The translations under genes and the position numbers were made by a program. From Heptranchias perlo (taxonomy: Eukaryota): a stretch of 64,000 bases of DNA. Location: positions 8,122,001 through 8,186,000 of the forward strand of contig NC_090362.1 of NCBI RefSeq assembly GCF_035084215.1. Direction: 5' to 3'. Under the pieces are notes generated by a model. It had not been told where the DNA came from. It saw nothing but the letters and a program-made list of their open reading frames with translations, and did no database searches. Positions 2,400 to 63,067 of the stretch are shown piece by piece; positions within the stretch are counted from its first letter, which is position 1, and every line of letters begins with the position of its first letter.

Positions 2400-4170
2400 G
2401 ATGAACTCTACCCCAGGATAGAGAGACAAGGAAGGAGATTTGTGAAGCACAGACAGCCATCATGAGGGAGTCAGTGAACACTGGGGAGATTCCAACAGAC
2501 TGGAAACAGGCAAATGTACTTGCCGCATTCAGGTAGGGAGACATAACTACAGAGCTACTAATCTGACCTTCATAATCGGAAAATAATCAAAAGCGAAACA
2601 GAAGAGCATCTGTATTTTAACCTTCAATGTGACTTCAGAAGGGGCAGATCTTGTCTCACTAACGTCATAAAGGAGATAATATCCCATGGTGACATATCCC
2701 ATACAACATAGTCAAACTTCCAAAAGACCTTTGATAAGTACAAGAACCTCCTTAATAGACTTCACTCTTTTCGACCTCAAGTGTGCTCAATGGCTGCACT
2801 CTTGGCTACCTCGTCTTCATTATTTGCTACCCGTCCTGTAGACATGGGATCAGTTTCCACATACATGCTAACGACACCCAGCTTTGCTTCCTGACAGCTG
2901 TCTGTCCGACATCAAGACCTGGGTCAGCCAAAACTTTCACCAGCTAAAAGTCATCAAAACTGAAGCCGACTACTTCTCAACTAGTGGTTCCTTTGATCAC
3001 GAATGCTTCCACCCTCAAATTCCCTCCCTCGGCACACCTCTGTTTTGTCACCTCCCTCCCAAAAGCCTAAGACTCTTCTTTCTCATGATGGTTTTGCCAC
3101 CCCCCCTGCAATCCAATCCTTGCTTTTCCTTTCTGCCTCCTGCTTGGTGCCCACTCTTTGCCTGCTGCCCTATAAAGCATGTTATGATATCTCTCTGCAG
3201 CTGAGGATCACCATAGAAATCCAGGTTGTTATTGCAAGTTGGTGGGTTAGTAATGGGCCAAAGGGAAGGAAGCCGAGGGTAGTTATGAAGGGAGCTCCAC
3301 TGAAATGAGGAAAGTACTGAGGGAACGCACCAGGGATTCATGCTGGGATACCTCCTGTTTATGAGATACATAAAGGATATGGGATACATAAAGGACCTGG
3401 ATTTTTCAGTCTCAGTGCAAGGTAATTAAATTCACAGGTGACGCCAAGATTGGGGAGAAGGAGGGGAAACAAATTGTAGACTTACAGGTGACAGCTAAGA
3501 TCTTACAAAGAGAACTCAACAAGGCCGATCAGTGGCAGATAAAATTCAGCACATCAAATGCAAAGTACTGCAAACTGAAAGTAAAAAAAATAGGAGTCAC
3601 GTGTGCTCCACGAGTGGAGCAGAACTTGCCATGGGGGAATTTGAAAGAAACCTGTGTGTTATTTTACTTATCATTTGCAAACAGAGTGATGCAACAATGA
3701 AGCAACCACAGTTCTGGGAAGCAACCACATTTTGGGCTATAATTGCCAAATTAGTGCAGCTGAAATCGTCAGAAGTCATGCTGAAGAAGTATGGTGTCCT
3801 GGTCAGACTGCTCCTGTCATAATCCTCATAGTTCTGATAACTAAAACTTAAGGGGGCCATCCAGACTCTAGAGGAGGTACAGAGTAAAACAACAAGGATG
3901 GTCCCCAGTGTTGGAATGACGAGCCATAAGGAATGACTGGATAACCAGGGCTAGTCGGCCTCATAAAAGAGATGCTTCAGAGGGGACCTTATAAAGGTTT
4001 ACAGGATACTTAACAGGATTTTCAGATATGCCAGGGCAGCTGGACAAGAGGGTACAGGTGCAGGACTATGAACAAGAGACATCTGGAAGTATCTCTTACA
4101 GCAGCAGGTATGTGTTGTCGGGATGGGCACTAGACTCAAGGAACAGCTGGCTGCTGTAAAGGGAAGATGG
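2400..4170 (+). mobile_element. Highly degenerate CR1 ORF2 remnants with an intervening L2-like fragment
   Basis: Broken RT-region motifs (FQKTFDK-like, ADQWQIKF, EVMLKKYGVLVR); LSDIKTWVSQNFHQLKVIKTE at 2884 is L2-like. Confidence 0.55.
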
Positions 4171-11472: not shown

Positions 11473-11681
11473 CCTGCCCCTCATCAGGCCGCTTTCCCCG
11501 AGTCCCGGGAGCCGGAGCTCTCCAACCGCCCCGCTCGCAACGTCACCACGCCGAGCCCTGAGGGGCGGGGCCGCTCGCCAATGGTCAGAAGGGCGCTGCG
11601 CATTACGTCACTGGGAGGGTGGGTGGGGCCATCACATTACCATGGAAACAAGGGACATCGCGCTGGAGGGGAAACAGCAGA

Positions 11682-14600
11682 GCAATACCCGGGATAATAG
11701 GGCAATACCCGGGATAATAGGGCAATACCCAGGATAATAGGGCAATACCCGGGATAATAGGGCAATACCCAGGATAACAGGGCAATACCCGGGATAATAG
11801 GGCAATACCCGGGATAATAGGGCAATACCCAGGATAATAGGGCAATACCCGGGATAATAGGGCAATACCCAGGATAATAGGGCAATACCCAGGATAATAG
11901 GGCAATACCCAGGATAACAGGGCAATACCCGGGATAATAGGGCAATACCCGGGATAATAGGGCAATACCCAGGATAATAGGGCAATACCCAGGATAATAG
12001 GGCAATACCCGGGATAATAGGGCAATACCCAGGATAATAGGGCAATACCCAGGATAACAGGGCAATACCCGGGATAATAGGGCAATACCCGGGATAATAG
12101 GGCAATACCCAGGATAATAGGGCAATACCCGGGATAATAGGGCAATACCCGGGATAATAGGGCAATACCCAGGATAATAGGGCAATACCCGGGATAATAG
12201 GGCAATACCCAGGATAATAGGGCAATACCCGGGATAATAGGGCAATACCCGGGATAATAGGGCAATACCCGGGATAACAGGGCAATACCCGGGATAATAG
12301 GGCAATACCCGGGATAACAGGGCAATACCCGGGATAACAGGGCAATACCCGGGATAATAGGGCAATACCCGGGATAACAGGGCAATACCCGGGATAACAA
12401 GAGAGTACCCGGGATAATAGGGCAATACCCGGGATAATAGGGCAATACCCAGGATAATAGGGCAATACCCAGGATAATAGGGCAATACCCGGGATAATAG
12501 GGCAATACCCAGGATAACAGGGCAATACCCGGGATAATAGGGCAATACCCGGGATAATAGGGCAATACCCAGGATAATAGGGCAATACCCGGGATAATAG
12601 GGCAATACCCAGGATAATAGGGCAATACCCAGGATAATAGGGCAATACCCAGGATAACAGGGCAATACCCGGGATAATAGGGCAATACCCGGGATAATAG
12701 GGCAATACCCAGGATAATAGGGCAATACCCAGGATAATAGGGCAATACCCGGGATAATAGGGCAATACCCAGGATAATAGGGCAATACCCAGGATAACAG
12801 GGCAATACCCGGGATAATAGGGCAATACCCGGGATAATAGGGCAATACCCAGGATAATAGGGCAATACCCGGGATAATAGGGCAATACCCGGGATAATAG
12901 GGCAATACCCAGGATAATAGGGCAATACCCGGGATAATAGGGCAATACCCAGGATAATAGGGCAATACCCGGGATAATAGGGCAATACCCGGGATAATAG
13001 GGCAATACCCGGGATAATAGGGCAATACCCGGGATAACAGGGCAATACCCGGGATAACAGGGCAATACCCGGGATAATAGGGCAATACCCGGGATAACAG
13101 GGCAATACCCGGGATAACAGGGCAATACCCGGGATAACAGGGCAATACCCGGGATAATAGGGCAATACCCGGGATAACAGGGCAATACCCGGGATAACAA
13201 GAGAGTACCCGGGATAATAGGGCAATACCCGGGATAATAGGGCAATACCCAGGATAATAGGGCAATACCCAGGATAATAGGGCAATACCCGGGATAATAG
13301 GGCAATACCCAGGATAATAGGGCAATACCCGGGATAATAGGGCAATACCCAGGATAATAGGGCAATACCCGGGATAATAGGGCAATACCCAGGATAATAG
13401 GGCAATACCCAGGATAATAGGGCAATACCCGGGATAATAGGGCAATACCCAGGATAACAGGGCAATACCCGGGATAATAGGGCAATACCCGGGATAATAG
13501 GGCAATACCCAGGATAATAGGGCAATACCCGGGATAATAGGGCAATACCCAGGATAATAGGGCAATACCCAGGATAATAGGGCAATACCCAGGATAACAG
13601 GGCAATACCCGGGATAATAGGGCAATACCCGGGATAATAGGGCAATACCCAGGATAATAGGGCAATACCCAGGATAATAGGGCAATACCCGGGATAATAG
13701 GGCAATACCCAGGATAATAGGGCAATACCCAGGATAACAGGGCAATACCCGGGATAATAGGGCAATACCCGGGATAATAGGGCAATACCCAGGATAATAG
13801 GGCAATACCCGGGATAATAGGGCAATACCCGGGATAATAGGGCAATACCCAGGATAATAGGGCAATACCCGGGATAATAGGGCAATACCCAGGATAATAG
13901 GGCAATACCCGGGATAATAGGGCAATACCCGGGATAATAGGGCAATACCCGGGATAATAGGGCAATACCCGGGATAACAGGGCAATACCCGGGATAACAG
14001 GGCAATACCCGGGATAATAGGGCAATACCCGGGATAACAGGGCAATACCCGGGATAACAGGGCAATACCCGGGATAACAGGGCAATACCCGGGATAATAG
14101 GGCAATACCCGGGATAACAGGGCAATACCCGGGATAACAAGAGAGTACCCGGGATAATAGGGCAATACCCAGGATAATAGGGCAATACCCGGGACAAGAG
14201 GACAATACCCAGGATAATAGGGCAATACCCGGGATAACAGGGCAATACCCAGGATAACAGGGCAATACCCCGGATAATAGGGCAATACCCAGGATAATAG
14301 GGCAATACCCGGGATAATAGGGCAATACCCAGGATAACAAGAGAGTACCCGGGATAACAGGACAATACCCGGGATAATAGGGCAATACCCGGGATAACAG
14401 GGCAATACCCGGGATAATAGGGCAATACCCGGGACAACAGGGCAATACCCAGGATAATAGGGCAATACCCGGGATAACAGGGCAATACCCGGGATAATAG
14501 GGCAATACCCGGGATAATAGGACAATACCTGGGATAATAGGACAATACCCAGGATAATAGGGCAATATCCAGGATAATAGGGCAATACCTGGGATAACAG

Positions 14601-17600
14601 GGCAATACCCAGGATAATAGGGCAATACCCAGGATAATAGGGCAATACCCGGGATAATAGGGCAATACCCAGGATAATAGGGCAATACCCAGGATAATAG
14701 GGCAATACCCGGGATAATAGGGCAATACCCGGGATAACGGCAATACCCGGGACAAGAGGACAATACCCGGGATAACAGGGCAATACCCAGGATAATAGGG
14801 CAATACCCAGGATAATAGGGCAATACCCGGGATAATAGGGCAATACCCAGGATAATAGGGCAATACCCGGGACAAGAGGACAATACCCGGGATAACAGGG
14901 CAATACCCGGGATAACAGGACAATACCCGGGATAATAGGGCAATACCCAGGATAATAGGGCAATACCCAGGATAATAGGGCAATACCCGGGATAACAGGG
15001 CAATACCCAGGATAACAGGGCAATACCCAGGATAATAGGGCAATACCCGGGATAATAGGGCAATACCCAGGATAACAAGAGAGTACCCGGGATAATAGGG
15101 CAATACCCAGGATAATAGGGCAATACCCGGGACAAGAGGACAATACCCAGGATAATAGCGCAATACCCGGGATAACAGGGCAATACCCAGGATAACAGGG
15201 CAATACCCCGGATAATAGGGCAATACCCAGGATAATAGGGCAATACCCGGGATAATAGGGCAATACCCAGGATAACAAGAGAGTACCCGGGATAACAGGA
15301 CAATACCCGGGATAATAGGGCAATACCCGGGATAACAGGGCAATACCCGGGATAATAGGGCAATACCCGGGACAACAGGGCAATACCCAGGATAATAGGG
15401 CAATACCCGGGATAACAGGGCAATACCCGGGATAATAGGGCAATACCCGGGATAATAGGACAATACCTGGGATAATAGGGCAATACCCAGGATAATAGGA
15501 CAATACCCGGGATAATAGGGCAATACCCGGGATAATAGGGCAATACCCAGGATAATAGGGCAATACCCGGGATAACAGGACAACACCCGGGATAATAGGG
15601 CAATACCCAGGATAACAGGGCAATACCCGGGACAATAGGGCAATACCCAGGATAATAGGGCAATACCCGGGATAATAGGGCAATACCCAGGATAACAGGA
15701 CAATACCCGGGATAACAGGACAATACCCGGGATAACAGGACAATACCCGGGATAACAGGGCAATACCCGGGATAATAGGGCAATACCCGGGACAACAGGG
15801 CAATACCCAGGATAATAGGGCAATACCCGGGATAATAGGGCAATACCCGGGATAATAGGGCAATACCCGGGATAACAGGGCAATACCCAGGATAATAGGA
15901 CAATACCCAGGATAATAGGGCAATATCCAGGATAATAGGGCAATACCCGGGATAACAGGGCAATACCCAGGATAATAGGGCAATATCCAGGATAATAGGG
16001 CAATACCCGGGATAACAGGGCAATACCCAGGATAATAGGGCAATACCCGGGATAATAGGGCAATACCCGGGATAACAGGACAATACCCAGGATAACAGGG
16101 AAATACCCAGGATAATAGGGCAATACCCGGGATAACAGGACAATACCCGGGATAACAGGGCAATACCCGGGATAATAGGGCAATACCCGGGACAACAGGA
16201 CAATACCCGGGATAACAGGGCAATACCCGGGACAACAGGACAATACCCGGGATAACAGGGCAATACCCGGGACAACAGGACAATACCCGGGAAAATAGGG
16301 CAATACCCGGGACAACAGGACAATACCTGGGATAACAGGGCAATACCCGGGATAATAGGGCAATACCCGGGACAACAGGACAATACCCGGGATAACAGGG
16401 CAATACCCGGGATAATAGGGCAATACCCAGGACAACAGGACAATACCCGGGATAACCGGGCAATACCCGGGCAATACCCGGGATAACAGGGCAATACCCG
16501 GGATAATAGGACAATACCCGGGACAACAGGGCAATACCCGGGATAATAGGACAATACCCGGGATAACAGTACAATACCCGGGACAACAGGGCAATACCCG
16601 GGACAACAGGGCAATACCCGGAATACAGGACAATACCCGGGACAACAGGGCAATACCCAGGACAACAGGGCAATACCCGGGATAACAGGACAATACCCGG
16701 GACAACAGGGCAATACCCGGGATAACAGGACAATACCCGGGACAACAGGGCAATACCCGGGACAACAGGACAATACCCGGGATAACAGGACAATACCCGG
16801 GACAACAGGGCAATACCCGGGATAACAGGACAATACCCGGGACAACAGGGCAATACCCGGGATAACAGGACAATACCCGGGACAACAGGGCAATACCCAG
16901 GATAATAGGGCAATACCCGGGATAATAGGGCAATACCCGGGATAACAGGACAATACCCAGGATAACAGGGAAATACCCAGGATAATAGGGCAATACCCGG
17001 GATAACAGGACAATACCCGGGATAACAGGGCAATACCCGGGATAATAGGGCAATACCCGGGACAACAGGACAATACCCGGGATAACAGGGCAATACCCGG
17101 GACAACAGGACAATACCCGGGATAACAGGGCAATACCCGGGACAACAGGACAATACCCGGGAAAATAGGGCAATACCCGGGACAACAGGACAATACCTGG
17201 GATAACAGGGCAATACCCGGGATAATAGGGCAATACCCGGGACAACAGGACAATACCCGGGATAACAGGGCAATACCCGGGATAATAGGGCAATACCCAG
17301 GACAACAGGACAATACCCGGGATAACCGGGCAATACCCGGGCAATACCCGGGATAACAGGGCAATACCCGGGATAATAGGACAATACCCGGGACAACAGG
17401 GCAATACCCGGGATAATAGGACAATACCCGGGATAACAGTACAATACCCGGGACAACAGGGCAATACCCGGGACAACAGGGCAATACCCGGAATACAGGA
17501 CAATACCCGGGACAACAGGGCAATACCCAGGACAACAGGGCAATACCCGGGATAACAGGACAATACCCGGGACAACAGGGCAATACCCGGGATAACAGGA

Positions 17601-17975
17601 CAATACCCGGGACAACAGGGCAATACCCGGGACAACAGGACAATACCCGGGATAACAGGACAATACCCGGGACAACAGGGCAATACCCGGGATAACAGGA
17701 CAATACCCGGGATAATAGGGCAATACCCGGGACAACAGGACAATACCCGGAATACCCGGGACAACAGGGCAATACCCGGGACAACAGGGCAATTCCTGGG
17801 ACAGCAGGACAATACCCGGGACAACAGGACAATACCCGAGACAACAGGGCAATTCCTGGGACAGCAGGACAATACCCGGGACAACAGGGCAATTCCTGGG
17901 ACAGCAGGACAATACCCGGGACAACAGGACAATACCCGGGACAACAGGGCAATTCCTGAGACAGCAGGACAATAC
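11682..17975. repeat. Minisatellite/satellite array, 20-bp unit GGGCAATACCC(G/A)GGATAA(T/C)A, about 315 units, with higher-order duplications
   Basis: Directly visible periodicity; homogeneous on the left, increasingly diverged on the right. Confidence 0.99.
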
Positions 17976-19603
17976 ATAGAATTTACAGCACAGAATCAGG
18001 CCATTCGGCCCAAAAGATCCAAGCTGGTGTTTATGCTCCACACGCGCCTTCTCCCTTCCTACCTCATCTAACCCTATCAGCATATCCTTCTATTCCCTTC
18101 TCCCTCATGTGTTTATCCAGCTCCCCCTTAAATGCAGCTATACTAGTCGCCTCAACTACTCCTTGTGGTAGTGAGTTCCACATCCTCAATACTCTCTGGG
18201 TAAAGAAGTTTCTACTTAATTCCCTATTTGATTTATTAGTGATTATCTTATATTTATGGCCCCTAGCTCTGGTCTCCCCCACAAGTGGAAACATCTTCTC
18301 TACTTCTACCCTATCAAACCCTTTCATAATCTTAAAGATCTCTACCAGGTCACCCCTCAGTCTTTTTTTTAATAGAAAAGAGCCCCAGCCTGCTCAATCT
18401 TTCCTGATAGGTAAACCCTCGGTTCTGGTATCATCCCAGTAAATCTTTTTTGCACCTTCTCCATTGCCTCTATATCCTTTTTCTAATATAGAGACCAGAA
18501 CTGTTCACAGTACTCCAGTGTGGTCTAACCAAAGTTCTACACAAGTTTAACATAACTTCTCTGCTTTTCAATTCTAAATGAACCCCAGCGCTTGGTTTGT
18601 TTTTTTTATTTCTTAATGTCTTCCTGTATTTTGTCGCGGTCCTCCTCTGCATTAACTATACCCCCCAATTTGGTGTCGTCCACAAATTTTGAAATTGTAC
18701 TTGGGAATCCGAAGTAACATTTCAATATTTGCGGAGTCCAAATCATTTATGTAAATGGTAAAATAACAGTGGTCCCAGCACCGATCCTTGTGGAACACTA
18801 CTTCCCATCTTTTGCCAGGCTGAGTAAATACCCTACTCTCTGTTTTCTGTTTTGTAGCCAGCTTGCTATCCATTCTTGCAAATGGAATATTGGCCTTTAT
18901 TTCTAGGGGGATGGAGTATAAAAGCATGGAAGTCATGCTGCAACTGTACAGGGTGCTGGTGAGACCACTCTTGGAGTACTGCATACAGTTCTGGTGCCCT
19001 TATTTAAGGAAGGACATACTTGCATTGGAGGCAATTCAGAGAAGGTTCACTAGGTTGATTCCAGGTATGGAAGGGTTGCCTTATGAGGAAAGATCGAACA
19101 GGTTGAGTCTATACTCATTGGAGATTAGAAGAATGAGAGGAGATCTTATTGAAACATACAAGATTCGATAGGGTAGATGCTGAGAGGATGTTACCCCTCA
19201 TGGGGGCATTGTCTCAGAATAAGGGGTCGCCCGTTTAAGACGGAAATGAGGAGGAATTTCTTCTCCCAGAGGGTGGTGAATCTTTGAAATTCTTTACCCC
19301 AAAAAGCTGTAGAGGCCGAGTCATTGAATACATTCAAGGCTGAGTTAGACAAATTTTTGATCAGCAAGGGAGTCAAAGGATATGGGGAAAGGGCGGGAAA
19401 GTGGAGTTGAGGTAAAAATTAGATCAGCCATGATCTCATTAAATGGTGGAGCAGGCTCGAGGGGCCGAATGGCCTACTCCTGCTCCTATCTCTTATGGTC
19501 TTATGGTTATTCTGCTACTTGTTCCCTGTCTCCACATGCTCTGACCTTAGTCATGAGTCTACTATGCGGTACCTTATCGAAGGCCTTTTGAAAATCCAAA
19601 TAT
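17976..19603 (-). mobile_element. CR1 LINE fragment inserted in the end of the satellite, itself interrupted at 18877-19508
   Basis: ORF 18064-18327 ...TRARGHKYKI...NFFTQRVLRMWNSLP; element resumes at 19509 with FQKAFDKVPHSRL on the minus strand. Confidence 0.85.
18877..19508 (+). mobile_element. CR1 LINE 3' fragment nested in another CR1
   Basis: ORF 18863-19171 ANGILAFISRG...LVRPLLEYCIQFWCP...RGDLIETYKI; flanked by duplicated ATTCT (18872-18876 and 19509-19513). Confidence 0.88.
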
Positions 19604-24011: not shown

Positions 24012-24104
24012 ATGCACCGAGCTTATCAACCCATCGTGCCAACCAGCAATAAGTATCTGCAGCAGAAGTGGGACAAGGACGATTACCAAAAGCACAGGAC
24101 AAAG
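24012..24104 (+). CDS. CFAP97D2: CFAP97D2-like, coding exon 1 (MHRAYQPIVPTSNKYLQQKWDKDDYQKHRTK)
   Basis: ATG then donor AAG|GTCAGG, phase 0; MHRAYQP..NKYLQQKWD is the typical N-terminus of CFAP97D (KIAA1430/Hemingway domain) proteins. Exact paralogue uncertain. Confidence 0.85.
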
Positions 24105-27751: not shown

Positions 27752-27832
27752 GTGCAAAAGGCCACAGCAGTTGTGGATACCAAAGGACCTCAGACCCCGG
27801 TACATCTTCAAGTCAAGCTAAAAACACTACAG
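27752..27832 (+). CDS. CFAP97D2: CFAP97D2-like, coding exon 2 (VQKATAVVDTKGPQTPVHLQVKLKTLQ)
   Basis: tccacag| acceptor, CAG|GTATGA donor, phase 0/0; VDT..P...HL..KLK family motif. Confidence 0.88.
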
Positions 27833-29696: not shown

Positions 29697-29815
29697 ATAC
29701 AGGAAGAGCGTTTGGCCATTATAACAAGAGACAATCAGATCCTTTCTTCCAAATTAGCTGCCATTATGAGATCCAACGGGACGGTGGAGAATTGGAACAA
29801 CTATTCATATAAAAG
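29697..29815 (+). CDS. CFAP97D2: CFAP97D2-like, coding exon 3 (IQEERLAIITRDNQILSSKLAAIMRSNGTVENWNNYSYK-S)
   Basis: ctttcttcag| acceptor, AAG|GTACAG donor, phase 0/2; EERL..I.RDN..L..K motif. Confidence 0.9.
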
Positions 29816-31155: not shown

Positions 31156-31243
31156 GTTGCTCCCTTCTGATTTAATTATTTTCTTCCTTTTACTGTTTTG
31201 ATGTCATCCCTTAACTGATATTTTCTAGTATCCTTCCACGCAG

Positions 31244-31427
31244 TCTGAATGCAGAGAAGCGACAGAGGGAGCTCATGCAGATATCACGGGAGAACCAAGC
31301 CATTCTTCAGCGCATCATGCATTGTGAATCAGAGTACAACCGCAGCAGACTGAAAGAGGATTGGGAGAAAGCTGAGAGAGTGCAAAAAGATATTGCACGT
31401 TATCCACGTGGGTTAAAAACAGTGCAG
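31244..31427 (+). CDS. CFAP97D2: CFAP97D2-like, coding exon 4 (SLNAEKRQRELMQISRENQAILQRIMHCESEYNRSRLKEDWEKAERVQKDIARYPRGLKTVQ)
   Basis: ccacgcag| acceptor, CAG|GTAAGA donor, phase 2/0; SLN..KR..EL..I..EN..IL.RI and IARYP motifs of the KIAA1430 domain. Confidence 0.92.
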
Positions 31428-35141: not shown

Positions 35142-35258
35142 AAAAGTAAGAAGAAAGTTCGCATCAGAGGTTGGATGAGTGGTGAAACCTCTGATGATGT
35201 CCAAGAACAGAGGGAGTTGCAGCAGCGAGGAGAGAAGTCAACAATGTTAATTGTATGA
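35142..35258 (+). CDS. CFAP97D2: CFAP97D2-like, last coding exon (KSKKKVRIRGWMSGETSDDVQEQRELQQRGEKSTMLIV*)
   Basis: ttttccacag| acceptor, phase 0 continues exon 4; TGA at 35256-35258; AATAAA at 35354-35359. Poorly conserved tail, so less certain than exons 1-4. Confidence 0.65.
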   Translation, partial: KSKKKVRIRGWMSGETSDDVQEQRELQQRGEKSTMLIV

Positions 35259-35428
35259 TTTATATCAATTAGTGTTAATTGCAGTCAGGTGGTGGGTTTC
35301 AATTATTATAGGAGAGCTTAGCTAGGGTGTGGGGTGCGTGTAAGGAATGTGTGAATAAAGGCTTGGAAGCAAGTAAAGACGGGGCTCTAGTATTCTACTC
35401 TTCAACACATGGCTATCCAATTTTAACA
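35245..35428 (+). mobile_element. Putative solo LTR (184 bp)
   Basis: Termini TGTTAA...TTAACA, internal AATAAA, flanking 5-bp near-TSD AACAA/AACAT. Confidence 0.65.
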
Positions 35429-35689
35429 AACATCAGGGTGACCAGTGAAGGAGCAACTCCAGGCCCTTCTCCATCCAAATATCTCACTTCTGCTATTCGC
35501 CCAAATCTATCCCGTTCGCACCACACAAATAACTTGTGGCGCATTCTTAGTTAAATCTTTCAGACATTTTTGTTATTTCCCTCCCTGCATTTCCTCCTGC
35601 GTTGGGTAGAAGGGGGTCTCAGAGGCTGCCCCACATTGATCTATGCCAATCTATATCCAACAGTGGATGGATGAGCACACTGTGGGTTA

Positions 35690-37155
35690 GAATCATGGAA
35701 TCATAGAATGGTTACAGCACAGAAGGAGGCCATTCGTCCCATCGAGCCCACACCTGCTCCCTGTAAGAGCAATCCAGTTAGTCCCATTCCCCCGCTCTTT
35801 CCCCATAGCCCTGCAATTTTTTTCCCCTCAAGTATTTATCCAATTCCTTTTTGAAAGCCACGATTGAATCTGCTTCCACCACCCTTTCAGGCATCACTTT
35901 CCAGATCGTAACGACTCGCTGTGTAAATAAGTTCTCCCTCATGTCGCCTTTGGTTCTTTTGCCAATCAGCTTAAATCTGTGTCCTCTGGTTCTCAAACTT
36001 TCCACCAATGTGATCAGTTTCTCTTTATTTACTTTACCTAAACCCTTCATGATTTTGAACACTTCTATCAAATCTCCTCTTAACCTTCTCTGTTCAGAGG
36101 AGAACAACCCCAGCTTCTCCAGTCTATCCATGTAACTGAAGTCCCTCATCCCTGGAACCATTCTAGTAAATCTTTTCTGTACCCTCTCCAAGGCCTTCAC
36201 ACCCTTCCTAAAGTGCGGTGCCCAGAATTGGACACAATATTCCAGCTGTGGCCGAACCAGTGTTTTATAAAGGTTCATCATAACTTCCTTGCTTATGCCT
36301 CTATTTATAAAGCCCAGGATCCCGTATGCTTTTTTAATCGCTTTCTCAACCTGCCCTGCCTCCTTCAAAGATTTGTGCACATATACCCCCAGGTCTCTCT
36401 GTTCCTGCACCCCCTTTAGAATTGTACTCTTTAGTTTATATTGCCTCTCCTCATTCTTCCTACTGAAATGTATCACTTCGCACTTTTCTGTGTTAAATTT
36501 AATTTGTCATCTGTCCGCCCATTCCACCAGCCTGCCTATGTCCTCTTGAAGTCTATTACTATCCTCCTGACTGTTCACTACACTTCCAAGTTTTGTGTCA
36601 TCTACAAATTTGGAAATTGTGCCCTGTACACCCAAGTCCAAGTCATTAATATATATAAAAAAAGTAGTGGTCCTAGTACCGACCCCTGGGGAACACCACT
36701 GTATACCTCCCTCCAGTCCGAAAAACAACCGTTCACCACTACTCTCTGTTTCCTGTCACTTATCCAATTTCATATCCATGCTGCCACTGCCCCTTTTATT
36801 CCATGGGCTTCAGTTTTGCTGACAAGCCTATTATGTGGCACTTTATCAAATGCCTTTTGAAAGTCCATATACACAACAGTAATCACATTGCCTTCAACAA
36901 CCTTCTCTGTTACCTCATCAAAAAACTCAATCAAGTTAGTTAAACACGATTTGCCTTTAATAAATCCGTGCTGGCTTTCCTTTATTAATCCACACTTGTC
37001 CAAGCGACTATTAATTTTGTCCCGGATTATCGTTTCTAAAAGCTTCTCCACTACTGAGATTAAACTGACTGGCCTGTAGTTGCTGGGTTTATCCTTACAC
37101 CCTTTTTTGAACAAGGGTGTAACATTTGCAATTCTCCAATCCTCTGGCACCACCC
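35690..37155 (-). mobile_element. CR1 LINE ORF2 (RT) 3' portion
   Basis: VPEDWRIANVTPLFKKG...YRPVSL...DFQKAFDKVPH, FVDDTKL, LVRPQLEYCVQFWAP...TRGH; frameshifted; atcatagaat tail. Confidence 0.93.
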
Positions 37156-37627
37156 AGAGGACTGGAGAATTGCAACAAGGTTCATGATGTCCCTTGTTTT
37201 AACCTCTCAACATCTTGCAACAGTGGCACCATCCCATTGGACTGCTTTCACATTTCCTAAAGGATTGTAGGGCCAAAAATGGTCGAATGTTATCAATTCC
37301 CTCCCTGCACACAACCTGAAATGCTTCGGTCTGGCTGCCTGCCTCTCTTCCACAGTCTTGTCCGTGCCCAGGTGGCCCTGGAGAGGGAACATGAGAGGCC
37401 TCGCACGAACCGTGGGCACCGTGGGACATACACCGTTTGATCGACAGTGATGACAATATTATGATTTGGTTTTCATTTAAGCGTCTTTACTTTTGATTGG
37501 ATTTCACGTTCAGAGTGTTATATTAGTGGTGCCTCCTCGGATGAGGCGGACACTTGTAGAGCTGTTCTTCCAGTTATTGTTTCAATCAAAAACAGGCACA
37601 ACTTGAAATGCTTGTAAGCCCTTTGCG

Positions 37628-38070
37628 GCCTGCTGCCCGTATCCAAACTCGCACCAAGTCTGTTCACCCATCAGCCCTGTGCTCGCTGACCTACATTGGC
37701 TCCCAGTCCACCAACTCCTCAAATTTAAAATTCTCATCCTTGTGTTCAAATCCCTCCACGGCCTCGCCCCTCCCTATTCCTGTAACCACCTCCAGCCCTA
37801 CAACTCTCCGAGATCCCTGCGTTCCTCCAACTCTGGCCTCTTGACTTTTATCCTGTGTAGGCCCTAAGCTCTGGAATTCCCTCCTTAAACGTCTCTGCCT
37901 CTCCACCTCTCCTCCTTTAAGGGGCTCCTTAAAACCTCCCTCTTTGACCAAGCTTTTGGTCACCTGTCCTAATGTCTCTTTCTTTGGCTCGGTGTCAATT
38001 TTTTTTTGTCTGGTTACACTCCTGTGACGTTTTCACTATGTTAAAGGCGCTATATAAATGCAAGTTGTTT
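37628..38070 (+). mobile_element. L2 LINE 3' fragment
   Basis: LADLHWLPVHQLLKFKILILVFKSLHGLAPPY; L2 tail. Confidence 0.85.
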
Positions 38071-40869
38071 TAATTTTATAACTAGAAGAGAACATTCAAT
38101 GGAATTCAAGGCCTTGCCACCTCTGCAGATTCCATCAGTTTCTAAACAGCTCACTGGGATTTTCCGTCGAACTTGTTAACAAAAAATATGAACAAGGAGC
38201 AAAACACTGCAGGTTCTGGAAATCCGAAAACAAAACTGGAAAAAAAAAACGGAAGTACTCAGCAGGTCAGGCAGCAACTGCGGAGAAACAGAAGTCGAGT
38301 CAATCTAACTTTCAGGTCTAAGACCCTTCCCCAATCCTGAGGAAGGGTCCTAGATCTGAAACTACGACTGACTGACCAGTTTCTGCATGGATGCTGCCTG
38401 ACCTGTTGAGTATTTCCAGCTTTTGCTATTAAAAAAGAAAACTGCTTTTCCCAACATGACGTCTTTAATGTCCACCTGAGCCACTGGAACAGGCAGATTT
38501 GGCCATGGTTTAATGGCTCATCCAAAGGATGGCACTTTTGACCTGTCATATTCCCTCAGTACTGAGCTGAAGTGTCAGTTGAGATTATGTGTACTGACTC
38601 AGGGAAGGAGTGCTGCCAACTGAGCCAAGTGGACACAATGGATTAAAAGGAAGGCAAACCCCAATGTGTACAGCCAACTGGATGGTTTAAATACAAAAGC
38701 ATGCTCTCATGTCTTTAGTTCTGGCTCGAGATCCAAAATCCATGGAAATTCACAGCATCCATCCACAATTTTGCATCATGAATTTCTACAAAAGACTTTC
38801 ATCCAAAAGTCCTGGTGGTTACAGTGCAAAAAAAATACTATGGAAAAGGATATTTCTCTCCCAAACTGAAAGCAGAAGATGCTGGGAAACATACAGCATG
38901 TCATTCAGCACCTGTAAAGAGAAAAGAAAGACTTGTATTTCTACAGTGTGTTTCACTGCCTCAGGATGTCCCAAAGTGCTTTACAGCCAATGAGGTACTT
39001 TTGAAGTGTAGTCACTGTTGTAATGTAGGAAACAAAGGCCAATTATGACGTTTTAGACATGGCACCTTTCCTCTGAAGATATATTTAATCCCCTATTGAC
39101 TGACTCTACCCTTGTTGTGTTTCAGGATTGTACTGTCAATATCTTGCTGTGTCTTATTGGTGCTATGTGTTATCATCTGAAACATAACTCTTAGTTTCTC
39201 CTGCACTCATTGGTATAATAGCCTGGTATTTTCCACCTTCTGATGGAACTAGGAGAATATGGTGGGTACCCCACATGATCACCAGTGGCCAATACATAGG
39301 AACAGGAGTAGGCCATTCAGCCCCTCGAGCCTGTTCCACACACCATTATTAAGAGGTGAATCTTAATTCTGAGCATGCTATCCCATTCATGGCATGAATA
39401 AAGATGCAGGTTTCAGACCATACAACATTCAGTCTGGTTAAGAAAATCTTTTTGCAGTGAGCAGAAATACTGGGAGAAACCCAAACTGTAACAAGCTCCA
39501 TATTTCAAACTTGAAACTCATATTTACTTACAAAAACCCCAAATAATTCCTTGTCGTGTGCTTAAATATACAATCTTGTGCTGCAATCTTATGTTTCCTG
39601 TGCTACATCTTGAATCTTTGTAAAACTCAGCTATTTCAGTGCAGAAATCACTTAATAAAATTCGAAAGCTTTGATTTGTTGGTGGAATGGATTGAGGCAG
39701 CAGGGTTTTGGAGTCTGGCTCCAATTACTCAATGATCGGAACAAGATTTCTGAAACTTGACAAATTCTACATCATCCTCTGTTATAATCAGGAAGCTTCT
39801 AATTATTTATCGGAGATATTAGAATTCTCAGCTATTATTTTTTTCGAACCAATTTGTTTACCAGAAGATGTTGACTCATGCTGGGATATTTTTTAAAAAA
39901 TCATTCTTGGGATGTGGGCATCGCTGGCAAGGCTGGCATTCATTGTCCCATCCCTGGTTGCCCTAAGGTTTGATACAACTGAGTGGCTTGCTAGGCCACT
40001 TCAGAGGGCAGTTAAGAGTCAAGTTCGTTGGGTGTGGGAGTGGAATCATGTGTAGGCCGGACTGGGTAAGGACGGTAGGTTTCCTTCCCTAAAGGACATG
40101 AGTGAATCAGTTGGGTTTATATGATAATCCGAATTTTAAGATTGAGGTGTTGAGGGACCAGGAGCCAATGTAGGCCAGAAGTGGTAGGTGATGGAGCAGG
40201 ACCCAGAATGGGATCAGGTACAGGCAAAATATCTGTGGCATCCAGTTTGCTGAGAAAATGTGTTTTTTCCATCAGTATGTTCAGTTTTGTCGTGTGATCT
40301 ACTCGATGAAGTGGCAAATAAAAGTTGTTTTTAATCATTCTTGATTGACCCCTGTACCTAATAGAAATAGGGAGCAAGAACGCAGAGGAAGAAAGTCATG
40401 AGTATTAGGAATGTAGGAACAGGAGGAGGCCATTCAGCCCCTCAAGCCTGTTCCAACATCAAAATAAGATCATGGCTGATCTGTATCCTAACTCCCATCT
40501 ACCCGCCTTGGTTCTGTAACCCTTAATACTCATGCCTAATAAAAATCTATCAATCTCGGTTCAATTGACCCCCAGCCTCAACAGATTTCCACTACCCTTT
40601 GTGTGAAGAAGTGCCTCCTGACATCACCCCTGAACGGCCTAGCTCTAATTTTAAGGTTATGCCCCCTTGTTCTGGACTCCCTCACCAGAGGAAATAGTTT
40701 ATCTACCTTATATAGAATATAGAAACACAACACCGAATATCTATTAGATATGGATTCATACTGGAAAGTCTAAGTCCCTAATCTCTCCAAGACAGATGCA
40801 GAGATCATTCCTGTACTCTGCCCCGACGATGTCCCTAATCCCAGAAGAACAAGTGCTGCTGTGAACTCA

Positions 40870-60290: not shown

Positions 60291-63067
60291 GTATGTTCTT
60301 TATAATTTTAAGAAAATGTTTTTTGTATCACTGAATGTAAACAAGCCAAAGAATTGGAGTGAGATGATATTGGAGGGAGTGGCCACAGTCAATAACTCGG
60401 GGCTTGTAGCTGTTGTCATGGATATCGTGGTTAGCCAATTGTAAAACACATTACTAGCAGGTGAATAAGTAGACGAAGCACCATAATAAAGTGTAAACAG
60501 ATGGATAATATAAAATAGCAAGTCATCAAACAATCCCCTCCTTAACTCATAACATACCACATTCAAACACTTCACTAAGCTCAGAATAGGAGTGTGACAA
60601 CTAGCATTTAATTAATGAAATAACAGCCAAACGCTAATCATCTTCTGCTCAGGGAGGTTATCCAAACACGAAATTAAATTCATTACTTCAAGAGGGAGTC
60701 ATTGAAGATTTATTTGTGACTACAATCTGTTCTGTCAGTTTTGTTTTACCAATTTCACCAATCTTTTTACACAAAACCTTTCTCCCCCAATTTTCACTCT
60801 CCACCAATAGTCCTGATGTGGAGTTCTTGTATTTTTGACCTGTTATTTTGCCTCTTGTATTCGTTCATTGCAAACTGTCAGGCCAAGTGAGAAGACTGCC
60901 TCAGCCATTGCGAACACAAGGCCATTTAGCCTATGGTAGCTGTTTCAGCTCTCGCAAAGCACTATCCCCTCCCTTCCATTGCCCTGTCCTTCCCTCACAC
61001 CATTTTGGCGCTACGTAAATGCAAGTTGTTGTTGTTGTTTACGACCAATGGATTAAAGTGAATTTTTGTGGTCCCAATTTTGAAACTTCACCCACCGGGA
61101 GCGCATTTCAGGAAATTGGGCCTGTGCTTCCCAAAACAAGTTTTCAGAAAATAGTGCAATGTTATAGGGGAAAAAAAAGACATCCTTACAGAAAGAATGT
61201 TCCAAAAAGCACCCAGTAACTACCATGTTTACACACAGATTGTAGACATGGTGACTGGTATTTTCAAATTTCCAGATCCATACTGTTTTCTTTGGCCTTT
61301 AGTTTGCAAGCTGAGGGAATAGAAACCCCATAAGCCAATAAAGAATCTCTGTTTAACTGACATCAAAGCCATCGGGCCACACATAATGTGCATTTGATGT
61401 TTGATAGTCCATTATTAGTTACATCGAGTCTACAGCACGGAAACAGGCCATTTATGCTCCACACAAGCCTCCTCCTTCTTGGTTAAAAACCTCCAAGAAA
61501 TAATCATCTAGGATGGCGTCTATCTCCTGTTCTTCTTTATGTTCAACTGTGCATGGTCCTCATCATTTTAACTTCCTCCTTGACTAGTCTCTTGTTATAT
61601 TTTACATCTTATGTTCCTTTTCAATTTTCTCTCTTACATTTCTTCGATCTGCTTCTGTGTAATCTTGTACTTGATCTAATGGTCACTTTGAGCCTAAGAG
61701 CTTTGTAAATCTTTTGTTTAACCTCCCTTTCAATTTTTCTCTTGATCCATTTTGGTGTATTTTTGTTTACTTTCGTTTCGTGAATTATATGCTTGCTTCA
61801 TTGTGTTTTTAAAGGATGTCCATTTATCTTTGACAAATTTATTCTTAAGAAGTCACCCCCCCCCCCCCTTTCTATCTATGTTAGTATACCATGTCTATTC
61901 CCTCAATAGTGTCTGGGTTACTCACAAGAACCAAGAGTCAATGGGTTACCAAACAAACCCCCTCCTTAACTTGTGACATACCAGATCCAAGCATTAATCA
62001 ATGGTTCTGAAACCGAATATTGCTTGTTACAGGCTTCACGTCACGAAGCTCAGAACAGGAGTGTGACAAAACTGAACCATTTCATCGAAGATTTAGCATG
62101 GCCTTGGCTTTTTAAATTATATCAAGGTGTGCAAGGGATTAAATCAGCATCACTCACAGAAGAACGTTCCAGCTCATTTTTGATACGATTGTTGCCAGAT
62201 TGGTGCTTCTTGTGGAACAGGTGACACAGGAGCCAATCCATATAATTCAAAACCAAATTTTACACTAATAATGGTGACACACCAGGCTGTGACCAGCGAC
62301 CTTTAAACAGCAAAGCCCCCCCCCCCAATAATAAATGTGTACGCAGAGCAAGGCCCCACCCAAAATAGCATGATGGAGGTGGGAGGAAGCCCATCCCAGG
62401 AAATCCATCCACGTCTTCCCCACAAAGCAATCAGTCCAATTCAGTCTTCACAATGGGGAGGGTGACTCAGTTAGGACACCCGCTTCTCTTCCCCAAAGAG
62501 CCATAGCTCCAGTCCCTCGTGCGTCTTGCCACTCAAGCACTTGCAGCCTTGCCAGCACCCACAACGGCCCAGAAATTCATTCATTCCCTGCACCAGAATG
62601 GTTAGGCCCGAAGCTCCCCAGATATTGGGCCCTCGGGCCTGATTATAAGGAGCTGGCGCAGCACAACAGCCCGACGGTGAAGACTACAGAAAAATTGGGC
62701 CGCTGCTAAGGTCACAGCAGTAAAAAAAAATTGGATAGCCCGGTGGTGAAGGATCGAATACTAGAGCCTGGTCTTCAGTTGCTTCCGAGCCTCTATTCTC
62801 AGAGATCCCCATTACACACACCGTGCACCCCCTAGATAAGCTCCCTCCGATAAATGGACACAAGAGAGTCCCCAATTGATACCCACCACCTGAATACAAT
62901 TAACACTAATTTATATAAATCACATGGATACAATTAACAACAGCGACTCGCAGGTAAGTGGATCCGTGGAGTCGGAGATCGAGATGGGGGCATGGCAGCA
63001 GCAATTGAGTCCTTTAATGTGGGGTCAGGAGGAGCACTACTATTCCTCCTGGCTTCACGTTCAGGTA

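What the first reader, a model, noticed from the sequence alone, without database searches (positions are those of the whole stretch)
35240..35441. Solo-LTR-like insertion rewrote the C-terminus and offers a poly(A) signal for the CFAP97D gene
Seen: a 184-bp segment 35245-35428 with TGTTAA...TTAACA ends, internal AATAAA (35354-35359) and flanks AACAA/AACAT. The gene's stop (TGA 35256-35258) lies inside it. Deleting the segment and one flank restores ...AAG TCA ACA (A/T)CA GGG TGA, an in-frame stop at 35439-35441. Established: TG...CA ends with 4-6-bp TSDs are typical of LTRs. Inference: insertion just before the ancestral stop changed the tail from ST(S/T)G* to STMLIV* and may have replaced the 3' UTR and poly(A) site (TE exaptation).
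Basis: partly seen in the sequence, partly recalled or inferred. Interest (0 to 1): 0.7.

Follow-up and report, generated by a model that had tools for sequence, protein, structure and literature searches.

The report
Shark gene reads into retrotransposon remnant
A 184-base leftover end of a jumping retroelement sits just behind the old stop position of a shark cilia gene; it likely landed in the untranslated tail first, and a likely later loss of the old stop codon makes the protein run on into it, a known and probably harmless kind of event.

Summary
Segment 35245-35428 is a solo LTR of a decayed GalEa-like Ty1/Copia family. The family has hundreds of copies, 5-bp target duplications (15 of 28 exact), and two-LTR copies with a tRNA-Met primer site, a purine tract, and integrase before an RVT_2 reverse transcriptase.

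The TGA at 35439 is not the ancestral stop. Five shark orthologues end at the codon that reads CGA here (35226-35228). A relative's spliced contig carries both TGA at that codon and the LTR start. So the LTR likely entered the 3' UTR 16 nt behind an intact stop, and a later TGA>CGA change made translation run into it.

Spliced RNA-type contigs run past the LTR's GT donor (35253) to the LTR's TGA in 3 of 4 runs (197 aa, ending STMLIV). RefSeq instead splices from that donor to a sixth exon at 38086 (215/220 aa). The AATAAA is the family's own signal in sense orientation, but its use is untested. The tail of this protein is very variable among cartilaginous fishes, so the change is probably neutral. 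A new member of a known kind; modest interest.

The parts
35245..35428 (+). Solo LTR of a GalEa-like Ty1/Copia retrotransposon, in the same sense as the host gene
   Evidence: Multicopy; orientation fixed by the primer site following its 3' end in 33 copies and a purine tract preceding its 5' end in 207 copies; two-LTR copies hold rve then RVT_2
35240..35244 (+). Left copy of the 5-bp target-site duplication (AACAA)
   Evidence: Sequence; family TSD length is 5
35429..35433 (+). Right copy of the target-site duplication (AACAT, one mismatch)
   Evidence: Sequence
35226..35228 (+). CGA: the former stop codon (TGA in a relative), 16 nt upstream of the LTR
   Evidence: Five shark orthologues end at this column; run X19 of organism D reads T at 35226; contigs of organism A show no other letter here
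35142..35252 (+). Exon 5 of the CFAP97D2-type gene up to the LTR donor; its last 8 nt are LTR
   Evidence: Joined to exon 4 in contigs of X5-X8 and X19; matches P0001
35253..35258 (+). LTR hexamer GTATGA: GT donor used by the RefSeq models, and the TGA (35256-35258) used if unspliced
   Evidence: Six-exon model equals P0001; hexamer present in 34 of 42 family copies; unspliced contigs pass it in X5, X6, X7
35354..35359 (+). AATAAA native to the LTR family; candidate poly(A) signal, use not shown
   Evidence: AATAAA or ATTAAA at this position in 38 of 42 copies; only canonical hexamer on the + strand between 35229 and 36958
35439..35441 (+). TGA in the old 3' UTR; not the ancestral stop
38086..38145 (+). 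Coding part of exon 6 of the RefSeq models (19 codons and TAA); single match in the genome
   Evidence: an X5 contig begins exactly at 38086
24012..24104 (+). Coding exon 1
27752..27832 (+). Exon 2
29697..29815 (+). Exon 3
31244..31427 (+). Exon 4

Best explanation
The segment is a solo LTR of a Ty1/Copia retrotransposon that likely inserted into the 3' UTR of a shark CFAP97D2-type gene, 16 nt behind the old stop, and a likely later TGA-to-CGA change would make translation run into it. Step 1 (inferred): a GalEa-like element integrated with a 5-bp duplication and recombined down to one LTR, leaving the protein unchanged. Step 2 (shown): the LTR start is part of the spliced transcript in this species and in organism D. 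Step 3 (inferred): the LTR's sense AATAAA likely ends part of the transcripts. Step 4 (state shown, order inferred): the stop at 35226 was lost in this lineage only. Step 5: the frame now gains six codons of old UTR and target site plus four in the LTR, ending at the LTR's TGA (197 aa instead of 187). A probably minor form splices from the LTR's GT to a sixth exon (215/220 aa, RefSeq). The extension lies outside the conserved domain and is probably neutral.
For: LTR identity. Old stop: P0014, P0002, P0003, P0015 and P0006/P0016 end at the column of 35226; these are 5 of 12 other shark species listed, and all those that keep this exon-5 frame. Order: the X19 contig (organism D) has exon-4 letters joined to 35139, T at 35226, and aligns through 35272 (28 LTR letters) with 6 differences over 134 bases. 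Read-through form: exon4-exon5 contigs continue unspliced to 35274, 35274 and 35270 in X5, X6 and X7; X8 ends at 35234 and is uninformative. X5 shows no loose end at 35252. Empty site: the frameshifted tail of Stegostoma P0017 scores on the right flank at rank 3 of 2134 bins, on the LTR start at rank 838. Lability: tails differ in frame and length across the 28 cartilaginous-fish proteins listed.
Against: The order rests on one contig of one unnamed relative, with 28 LTR letters checked, below the tool's 31-letter bridging rule. CGA>TGA is a fast CpG change, so a reversion in D is possible. The only two records for this species use the spliced exon-6 end, not STMLIV. An X5 contig runs unbroken from 35307 to 35721, across the expected cleavage zone and the LTR end, so some RNA (or DNA) passes the AATAAA. 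All organism A runs come from one sample, and their RNA status is a guess by the tool. The homologous Chiloscyllium tail P0063 does not support the empty site (rank 444 of 2134) and P0005 is uninformative (rank 349). Organism B's DNA contig did not reach the site and organism C gave nothing.
Confidence: 0.75

Rival explanations
1. One reading: the stop at 35226 was lost first, the gene ended ST(S/T)G at 35439, and the LTR then cut into coding sequence. Organism D would have reverted CGA to TGA.
For: CGA>TGA is a frequent CpG transition (established knowledge); the empty site does give an in-frame TGA three codons on.
Against: It needs two changes instead of one. None of the 28 proteins listed ends in ST(S/T)G. 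A stop within three codons arises at 13.7% of positions. D has LTR plus TGA.
Confidence: 0.08
2. The main mRNA is the RefSeq form: the LTR acts chiefly as splice donor to exon 6, and its TGA and AATAAA lie in an intron and are little used.
For: P0001 and P0012 both end this way; the six-exon model reproduces P0001 exactly; an X5 contig starts exactly at the acceptor 38086; GTATGA also serves as the donor of exon 2.
Against: Exon-joined contigs pass 35253 unspliced in 3 of 4 runs. No junction contig or loose end at 35252 appeared in X5. The junction is not among the 15 joints shown of 101 (86 not shown). The exon side of this donor (ATT) is weak: 4 of 9 consensus matches. Contigs drop rare forms, so absence is not shown.
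Confidence: 0.25
3. The CGA is a private or segregating stop-loss allele of the one individual sequenced, not a fixed trait of the species.
For: All organism A runs are from one sample. Recent C-terminal extensions are often still polymorphic (PMC4494051, passages).
Against: Contigs of 4 runs show no other letter at 35226, as expected for a homozygote, though contigs drop variants.
Confidence: 0.2

Closest known systems
GalEa clade of Ty1/Copia LTR retrotransposons (CoRex1/2 of Rimicaris; PMC3587641 and PMC5445492, passages)
   Same: Short LTRs (133-217 bp there, about 200 bp here) starting TGTTA; primer site matching TGGTAGCAGAG directly after the 5' LTR; A/G-rich purine tract; CCHC knuckle; integrase before RT; KARLV and xDxxTK motifs.
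   Different: The 12th primer-site base is A, not C, in the 4 copies with an otherwise intact site. TRPDI was found in none of 5 decayed copies. No RT tree was built. The host is a shark.
LTR-derived poly(A) sites adopted by host genes (Lee, Ji and Tian 2008, PMC2553571; abstract and section 10)
   Same: A sense-oriented LTR with its own AATAAA lies at a gene's 3' end; that paper reports a strong plus-strand bias.
   Different: Those are mapped cleavage sites, mostly in ERV1/MaLR LTRs of human genes. Here the LTR is Copia and cleavage is not mapped.
De novo C-terminal extension by stop-codon loss (PMC4494051, passages)
   Same: A point change removes the stop and 3' UTR becomes coding up to the next stop (9 of 54 yeast cases were point losses).
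   Different: Here the next stop and an optional splice donor come from a pre-existing LTR.
MaLR/ERVL LTRs donating splice donors (PMC5538554, passages)
   Same: A solo LTR carries a splice donor and a poly(A) site usable by a host gene.
   Different: There the LTRs act as promoters and first exons in mammalian oocytes. Here the donor is at nt 9 of a Copia LTR at the gene's 3' end.

Membership tests
Solo LTR | TG...CA ends with 4-6-bp target duplication | tested here: met
   Window AACAA/AACAT; family 5-bp exact in 15 of 28, within one mismatch in 21 of 28
Solo LTR | Same sequence occurs as paired direct repeats around an internal region with PBS and PPT | tested here: met
   5 of 6 candidate pairs fetched share an internal region; 33 LTR-PBS and 207 PPT-LTR junctions, controls 0; exact outer TSD in 1 of 5 (L052)
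Solo LTR | No internal sequence next to this copy | tested here: met
   Right flank 35429-35690 has a single match in the genome; left flank is exon 5
Ty1/Copia | Integrase upstream of an RVT_2-type reverse transcriptase | tested here: met
   L052: rve at 2335-2988 (E 3.7e-4, below cut-off) then RVT_2 at 3803-4135 (E 4.7e-12, above cut-off); L051 rve E 1.5e-9; 4 of 21 ORFs hit these families; none in the L046/L047 ORFs
GalEa clade | PBS TGGTAGCAGAGC directly after the 5' LTR | tested here: inconclusive
   11 of 12 bases match in L046, L050, L051, L052; the 12th is A
GalEa clade | KARLVA, YVDD, TRPDI and ADxxTK motifs; CCHC knuckle | tested here: inconclusive
   KARLV in 2, HVDD in 1, SDCFTK in 3, CCHC in 2, TRPDI in 0 of 5 decayed copies
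GalEa clade | Groups with GalEa elements in an RT/RNase H tree | not tested
MITE / DNA transposon | Long terminal inverted repeats and no retroelement internal region | tested here: not met
   The inverted match is 6 bp; a retroelement internal region exists
TE-derived poly(A) site | Canonical hexamer in sense orientation within the transcript | tested here: met
TE-derived poly(A) site | Mapped cleavage 15-30 nt after the hexamer | not testable with these tools
   Only contigs were served, which cannot show ends
CFAP97 / Hemingway family | PF13879 domain | tested here: met
   P0001 residues 28-122, E 3.2e-25. D1 versus D2 was not resolved: sources use both names, most shark records say D2

The most novel reading that the evidence does not exclude
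A Copia solo LTR, from a superfamily that is scarce in vertebrates, has taken over the whole 3' end of a shark ciliary gene in steps. It first became the main poly(A) site while the old one decayed. After a stop loss it became both the stop codon and a splice donor that recruits a new coding exon, giving two fixed alternative C-termini.
Probability: 0.25. Interest if true: 0.5.

Novelty: new member of a known kind. Interest (0 to 1): 0.3.

Why it matters
It is a clean, ordered example of a transposon fragment sitting silently in a 3' UTR and only later becoming coding, because a separate point mutation removed the stop. If the poly(A) and donor uses hold, it would be a co-option of a Copia LTR in a vertebrate. 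The one search made for such a case in sharks (shark, solo LTR, exapt, polyadenylation) returned only a mammalian review, seen as a listing. It is also a caution: an in-frame stop behind an insertion is no evidence of the ancestral stop without outgroups. A functional effect is unlikely, since this tail varies freely among sharks and rays.

Tried and rejected
MITE reading: rejected (6-bp inverted ends, retroelement internal region).

ERV or Gypsy reading: rejected (RVT_2, integrase first). The RVT_1 hit in L047 lies in a stretch absent from L046, L050 and L052 and is taken as a nested insert (inferred).

First primer-site pattern with a 3-base gap: 15 unrelated hits, uninformative. Pair C1:57.5 Mb (L048/L049) was not a two-LTR element and was dropped.

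Contig depth falls beyond the LTR (X5: 133.7 on exons, 16.5 on 35307-35721; no cover in 35418-35671 for X7 and X8). Contig depth cannot rank parts of a gene, so this is not used as evidence for the poly(A) site. No run was on record as RNA.

Runs X14 and X18 did not reach the insertion site. 13 of the 21 runs listed were from other organisms at a 0.04 share; 3 of them were laid. A plain tblastn of frameshifted tails against the window gave nothing. The codon-profile scan supported the empty site for 1 (P0017) of 6 tails scanned.

A near-miss hexamer (AATAAC, 35528) in the old UTR is about what chance gives and was not used. Earlier-findings look-ups by place, sequence and words returned nothing. 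No structure was predicted: the tail lies outside the domain.

Full report
1. Observation. Every coordinate in the finding is correct. The 184-bp segment is a repeat: 2131 candidates in the 3.25-Gb genome, 40 scored, the 39 other copies 76-86% identical. Its first 19 bases occur exactly 648 times against 1 for the control. Of 29 copies fetched, 28 have both ends. Their flanks show a 5-bp duplication, exact in 15 and within one mismatch in 21, against 0.000 and 0.017 for flanks of different copies; 4-bp exact 1, 6-bp 0. The inverted match of the ends is only 6 bp.

2. What the element is. The LTR end is followed directly by TGGTAGCAGAG in 33 places and preceded by a purine tract in 207, controls 0. 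This fixes the + strand of the window as the LTR's sense strand. Of 6 candidate pairs fetched, 5 are two-LTR elements with a shared internal region, and one (L052) has an exact outer 5-bp duplication. The copies examined are broken into short open stretches. Pfam finds integrase (rve) upstream of RVT_2 in L052 and rve in L051; 4 of 21 stretches hit these families, and none did. That order and RT type define Ty1/Copia (established knowledge). The primer site, TGTTA start, short LTR and several motifs match published GalEa features (PMC3587641 and PMC5445492, passages). The 12th primer-site base differs and TRPDI was found in 0 of 5 copies, so I call it GalEa-like, not a member. The two LTRs of 4 elements differ by K2P 0.06-0.10, and the window copy differs from them by 0.10-0.18, so the family is old. 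Copia is reported in only a few chondrichthyan species (PMC11889832, passages).

3. The gene. Exon 4 matches at 100% a record named for Heptranchias perlo (P0001) with the PF13879 domain at residues 28-122. Six exons at 24012, 27752, 29697, 31244, 35142 and 38086 reproduce P0001 exactly. Both records for this species (P0001, P0012) leave exon 5 at the GT at 35253, nine bases into the LTR, and end in exon 6. In them the TGA at 35256 is intronic. Mouse Cfap97d1 is needed for flagellar axoneme maintenance; Cfap97d2 is expressed in several tissues (PMC7444823, passages).

4. The ancestral stop. Proteins of Pristiophorus, Heterodontus, Carcharodon, Cetorhinus and Scyliorhinus torazame end exactly at the column of window codon 35226-35228, which reads CGA. 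These are 5 of the 12 other shark species listed. The other 7, and the rays and the chimaera, have frameshifted or otherwise different tails, and none of the 28 proteins ends in ST(S/T)G. These records are annotation predictions. Direct evidence comes from run X19 of coded organism D. Its one contig has exon-4 letters joined to exon 5, reads T at 35226 (TGA), and aligns on through 35272 with 6 differences in 134 bases, including 28 letters of the LTR. D therefore has the LTR and the intact stop together. The simplest order is insertion into the 3' UTR, 16 nt behind the stop, then TGA>CGA in this lineage (inference). A CpG reversion in D remains possible. Evidence for an empty site is modest: the frameshifted Stegostoma tail ranks the right flank 3rd of 2134 bins and the LTR start 838th, but the homologous Chiloscyllium tail ranks it 444th. 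Organisms B and C did not reach the site.

5. What is transcribed. Four runs of organism A were laid; all come from one sample, are RNA by the tool's guess, and are contigs only. Exon 4 is joined to exon 5 in 4 of 4. In 3 of 4 the same contig continues unspliced 18-22 letters past the GT, through the LTR's TGA; the fourth stops at 35234. That is the 197-aa form ending STMLIV, against 187 aa with the old stop. The RefSeq junction was not seen: no loose end at 35252 in X5, and it is not among the 15 of 101 joints shown. One X5 contig begins exactly at the acceptor 38086, a hint that the acceptor is used. I infer that both forms exist, with the unspliced one commoner in these runs. The AATAAA belongs to the family (38 of 42 copies; GTATGA in 34 of 42), so its presence shows no selection. 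It is in sense orientation and is the only canonical hexamer between the old stop and 36958. Sense LTR signals are often adopted by host genes (PMC2553571, abstract and section 10). Against exclusive use, an X5 contig runs unbroken from 35307 to 35721. I put the odds that it is a real poly(A) site at about one half.

6. Mechanism. Shown: LTR identity and orientation; CGA here and TGA in D; LTR start in spliced transcripts of A and D; unspliced passage through the LTR's TGA. Inferred: order of events, reduction to a solo LTR by recombination, poly(A) use, minor use of the donor, and neutrality. Neutrality rests on the tail lying outside the domain and varying in frame and length across cartilaginous fishes. 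With the old stop intact, a splice at 35253 would lie 24 nt behind the stop, inside the roughly 50-nt distance that usually escapes nonsense-mediated decay (recalled rule). The donor could thus have been used harmlessly before the stop loss.

7. Comparison and verdict. It works like LTR-donated poly(A) and splice signals in mammals (PMC2553571; PMC5538554, passages) combined with C-terminal extension by stop loss (PMC4494051, passages). The pairing of the two and the Copia origin in a shark are the new details. Searches (listings) showed no report of this locus; subscription journals are not covered and no supplements were seen. New member of a known kind; interest 0.3.

Noticed in passing
window 62719-62939 (- strand): A second solo LTR of the same family, 73% identical to the first, with an exact 5-bp duplication (GCTGT) and its poly(A) hexamer changed to AATAGA.
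   Followed up: partly
window about 11670-17990: A tandem array about 6 kb long; self-alignment offsets suggest a unit near 20 bp.
   Followed up: no
window 35166: Exon 5 lacks 9 nt (3 codons) that organism D and the in-frame shark orthologues have; organism B's loose end shows the same extra letters. A second lineage-specific change in the same exon.
   Followed up: partly
window 31229-31243: An alternative acceptor upstream of exon 4 adds five residues in RefSeq isoform X1 (P0012).
   Followed up: no
window 35528-35581: AATAAC followed about 35 nt later by a U-rich tract in the old 3' UTR; could be the decayed former poly(A) signal, but near-miss hexamers are expected by chance.
   Followed up: no
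L046:2138-4167: An insert inside a Copia copy with 529-bp inverted ends (98% alike) and a 398-aa open stretch; it resembles Penelope-type elements (recalled; Pfam gave no such hit).
   Followed up: no
L049:4087-5535: Two LTR copies in opposite orientation within a 474-bp inverted duplication, 94% alike.
   Followed up: no
window 37140-37703 and 38391-38700: Long perfect contigs of run X5 cover these stretches outside annotated coding exons; their origin (UTR, intron or another transcript) is unknown.
   Followed up: no
G000, whole genome: Purine-tract junctions (207, one mismatch allowed) outnumber primer-site junctions (33, exact); the patterns differ in strictness, so the excess of 3' ends is only a lead.
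   Followed up: no
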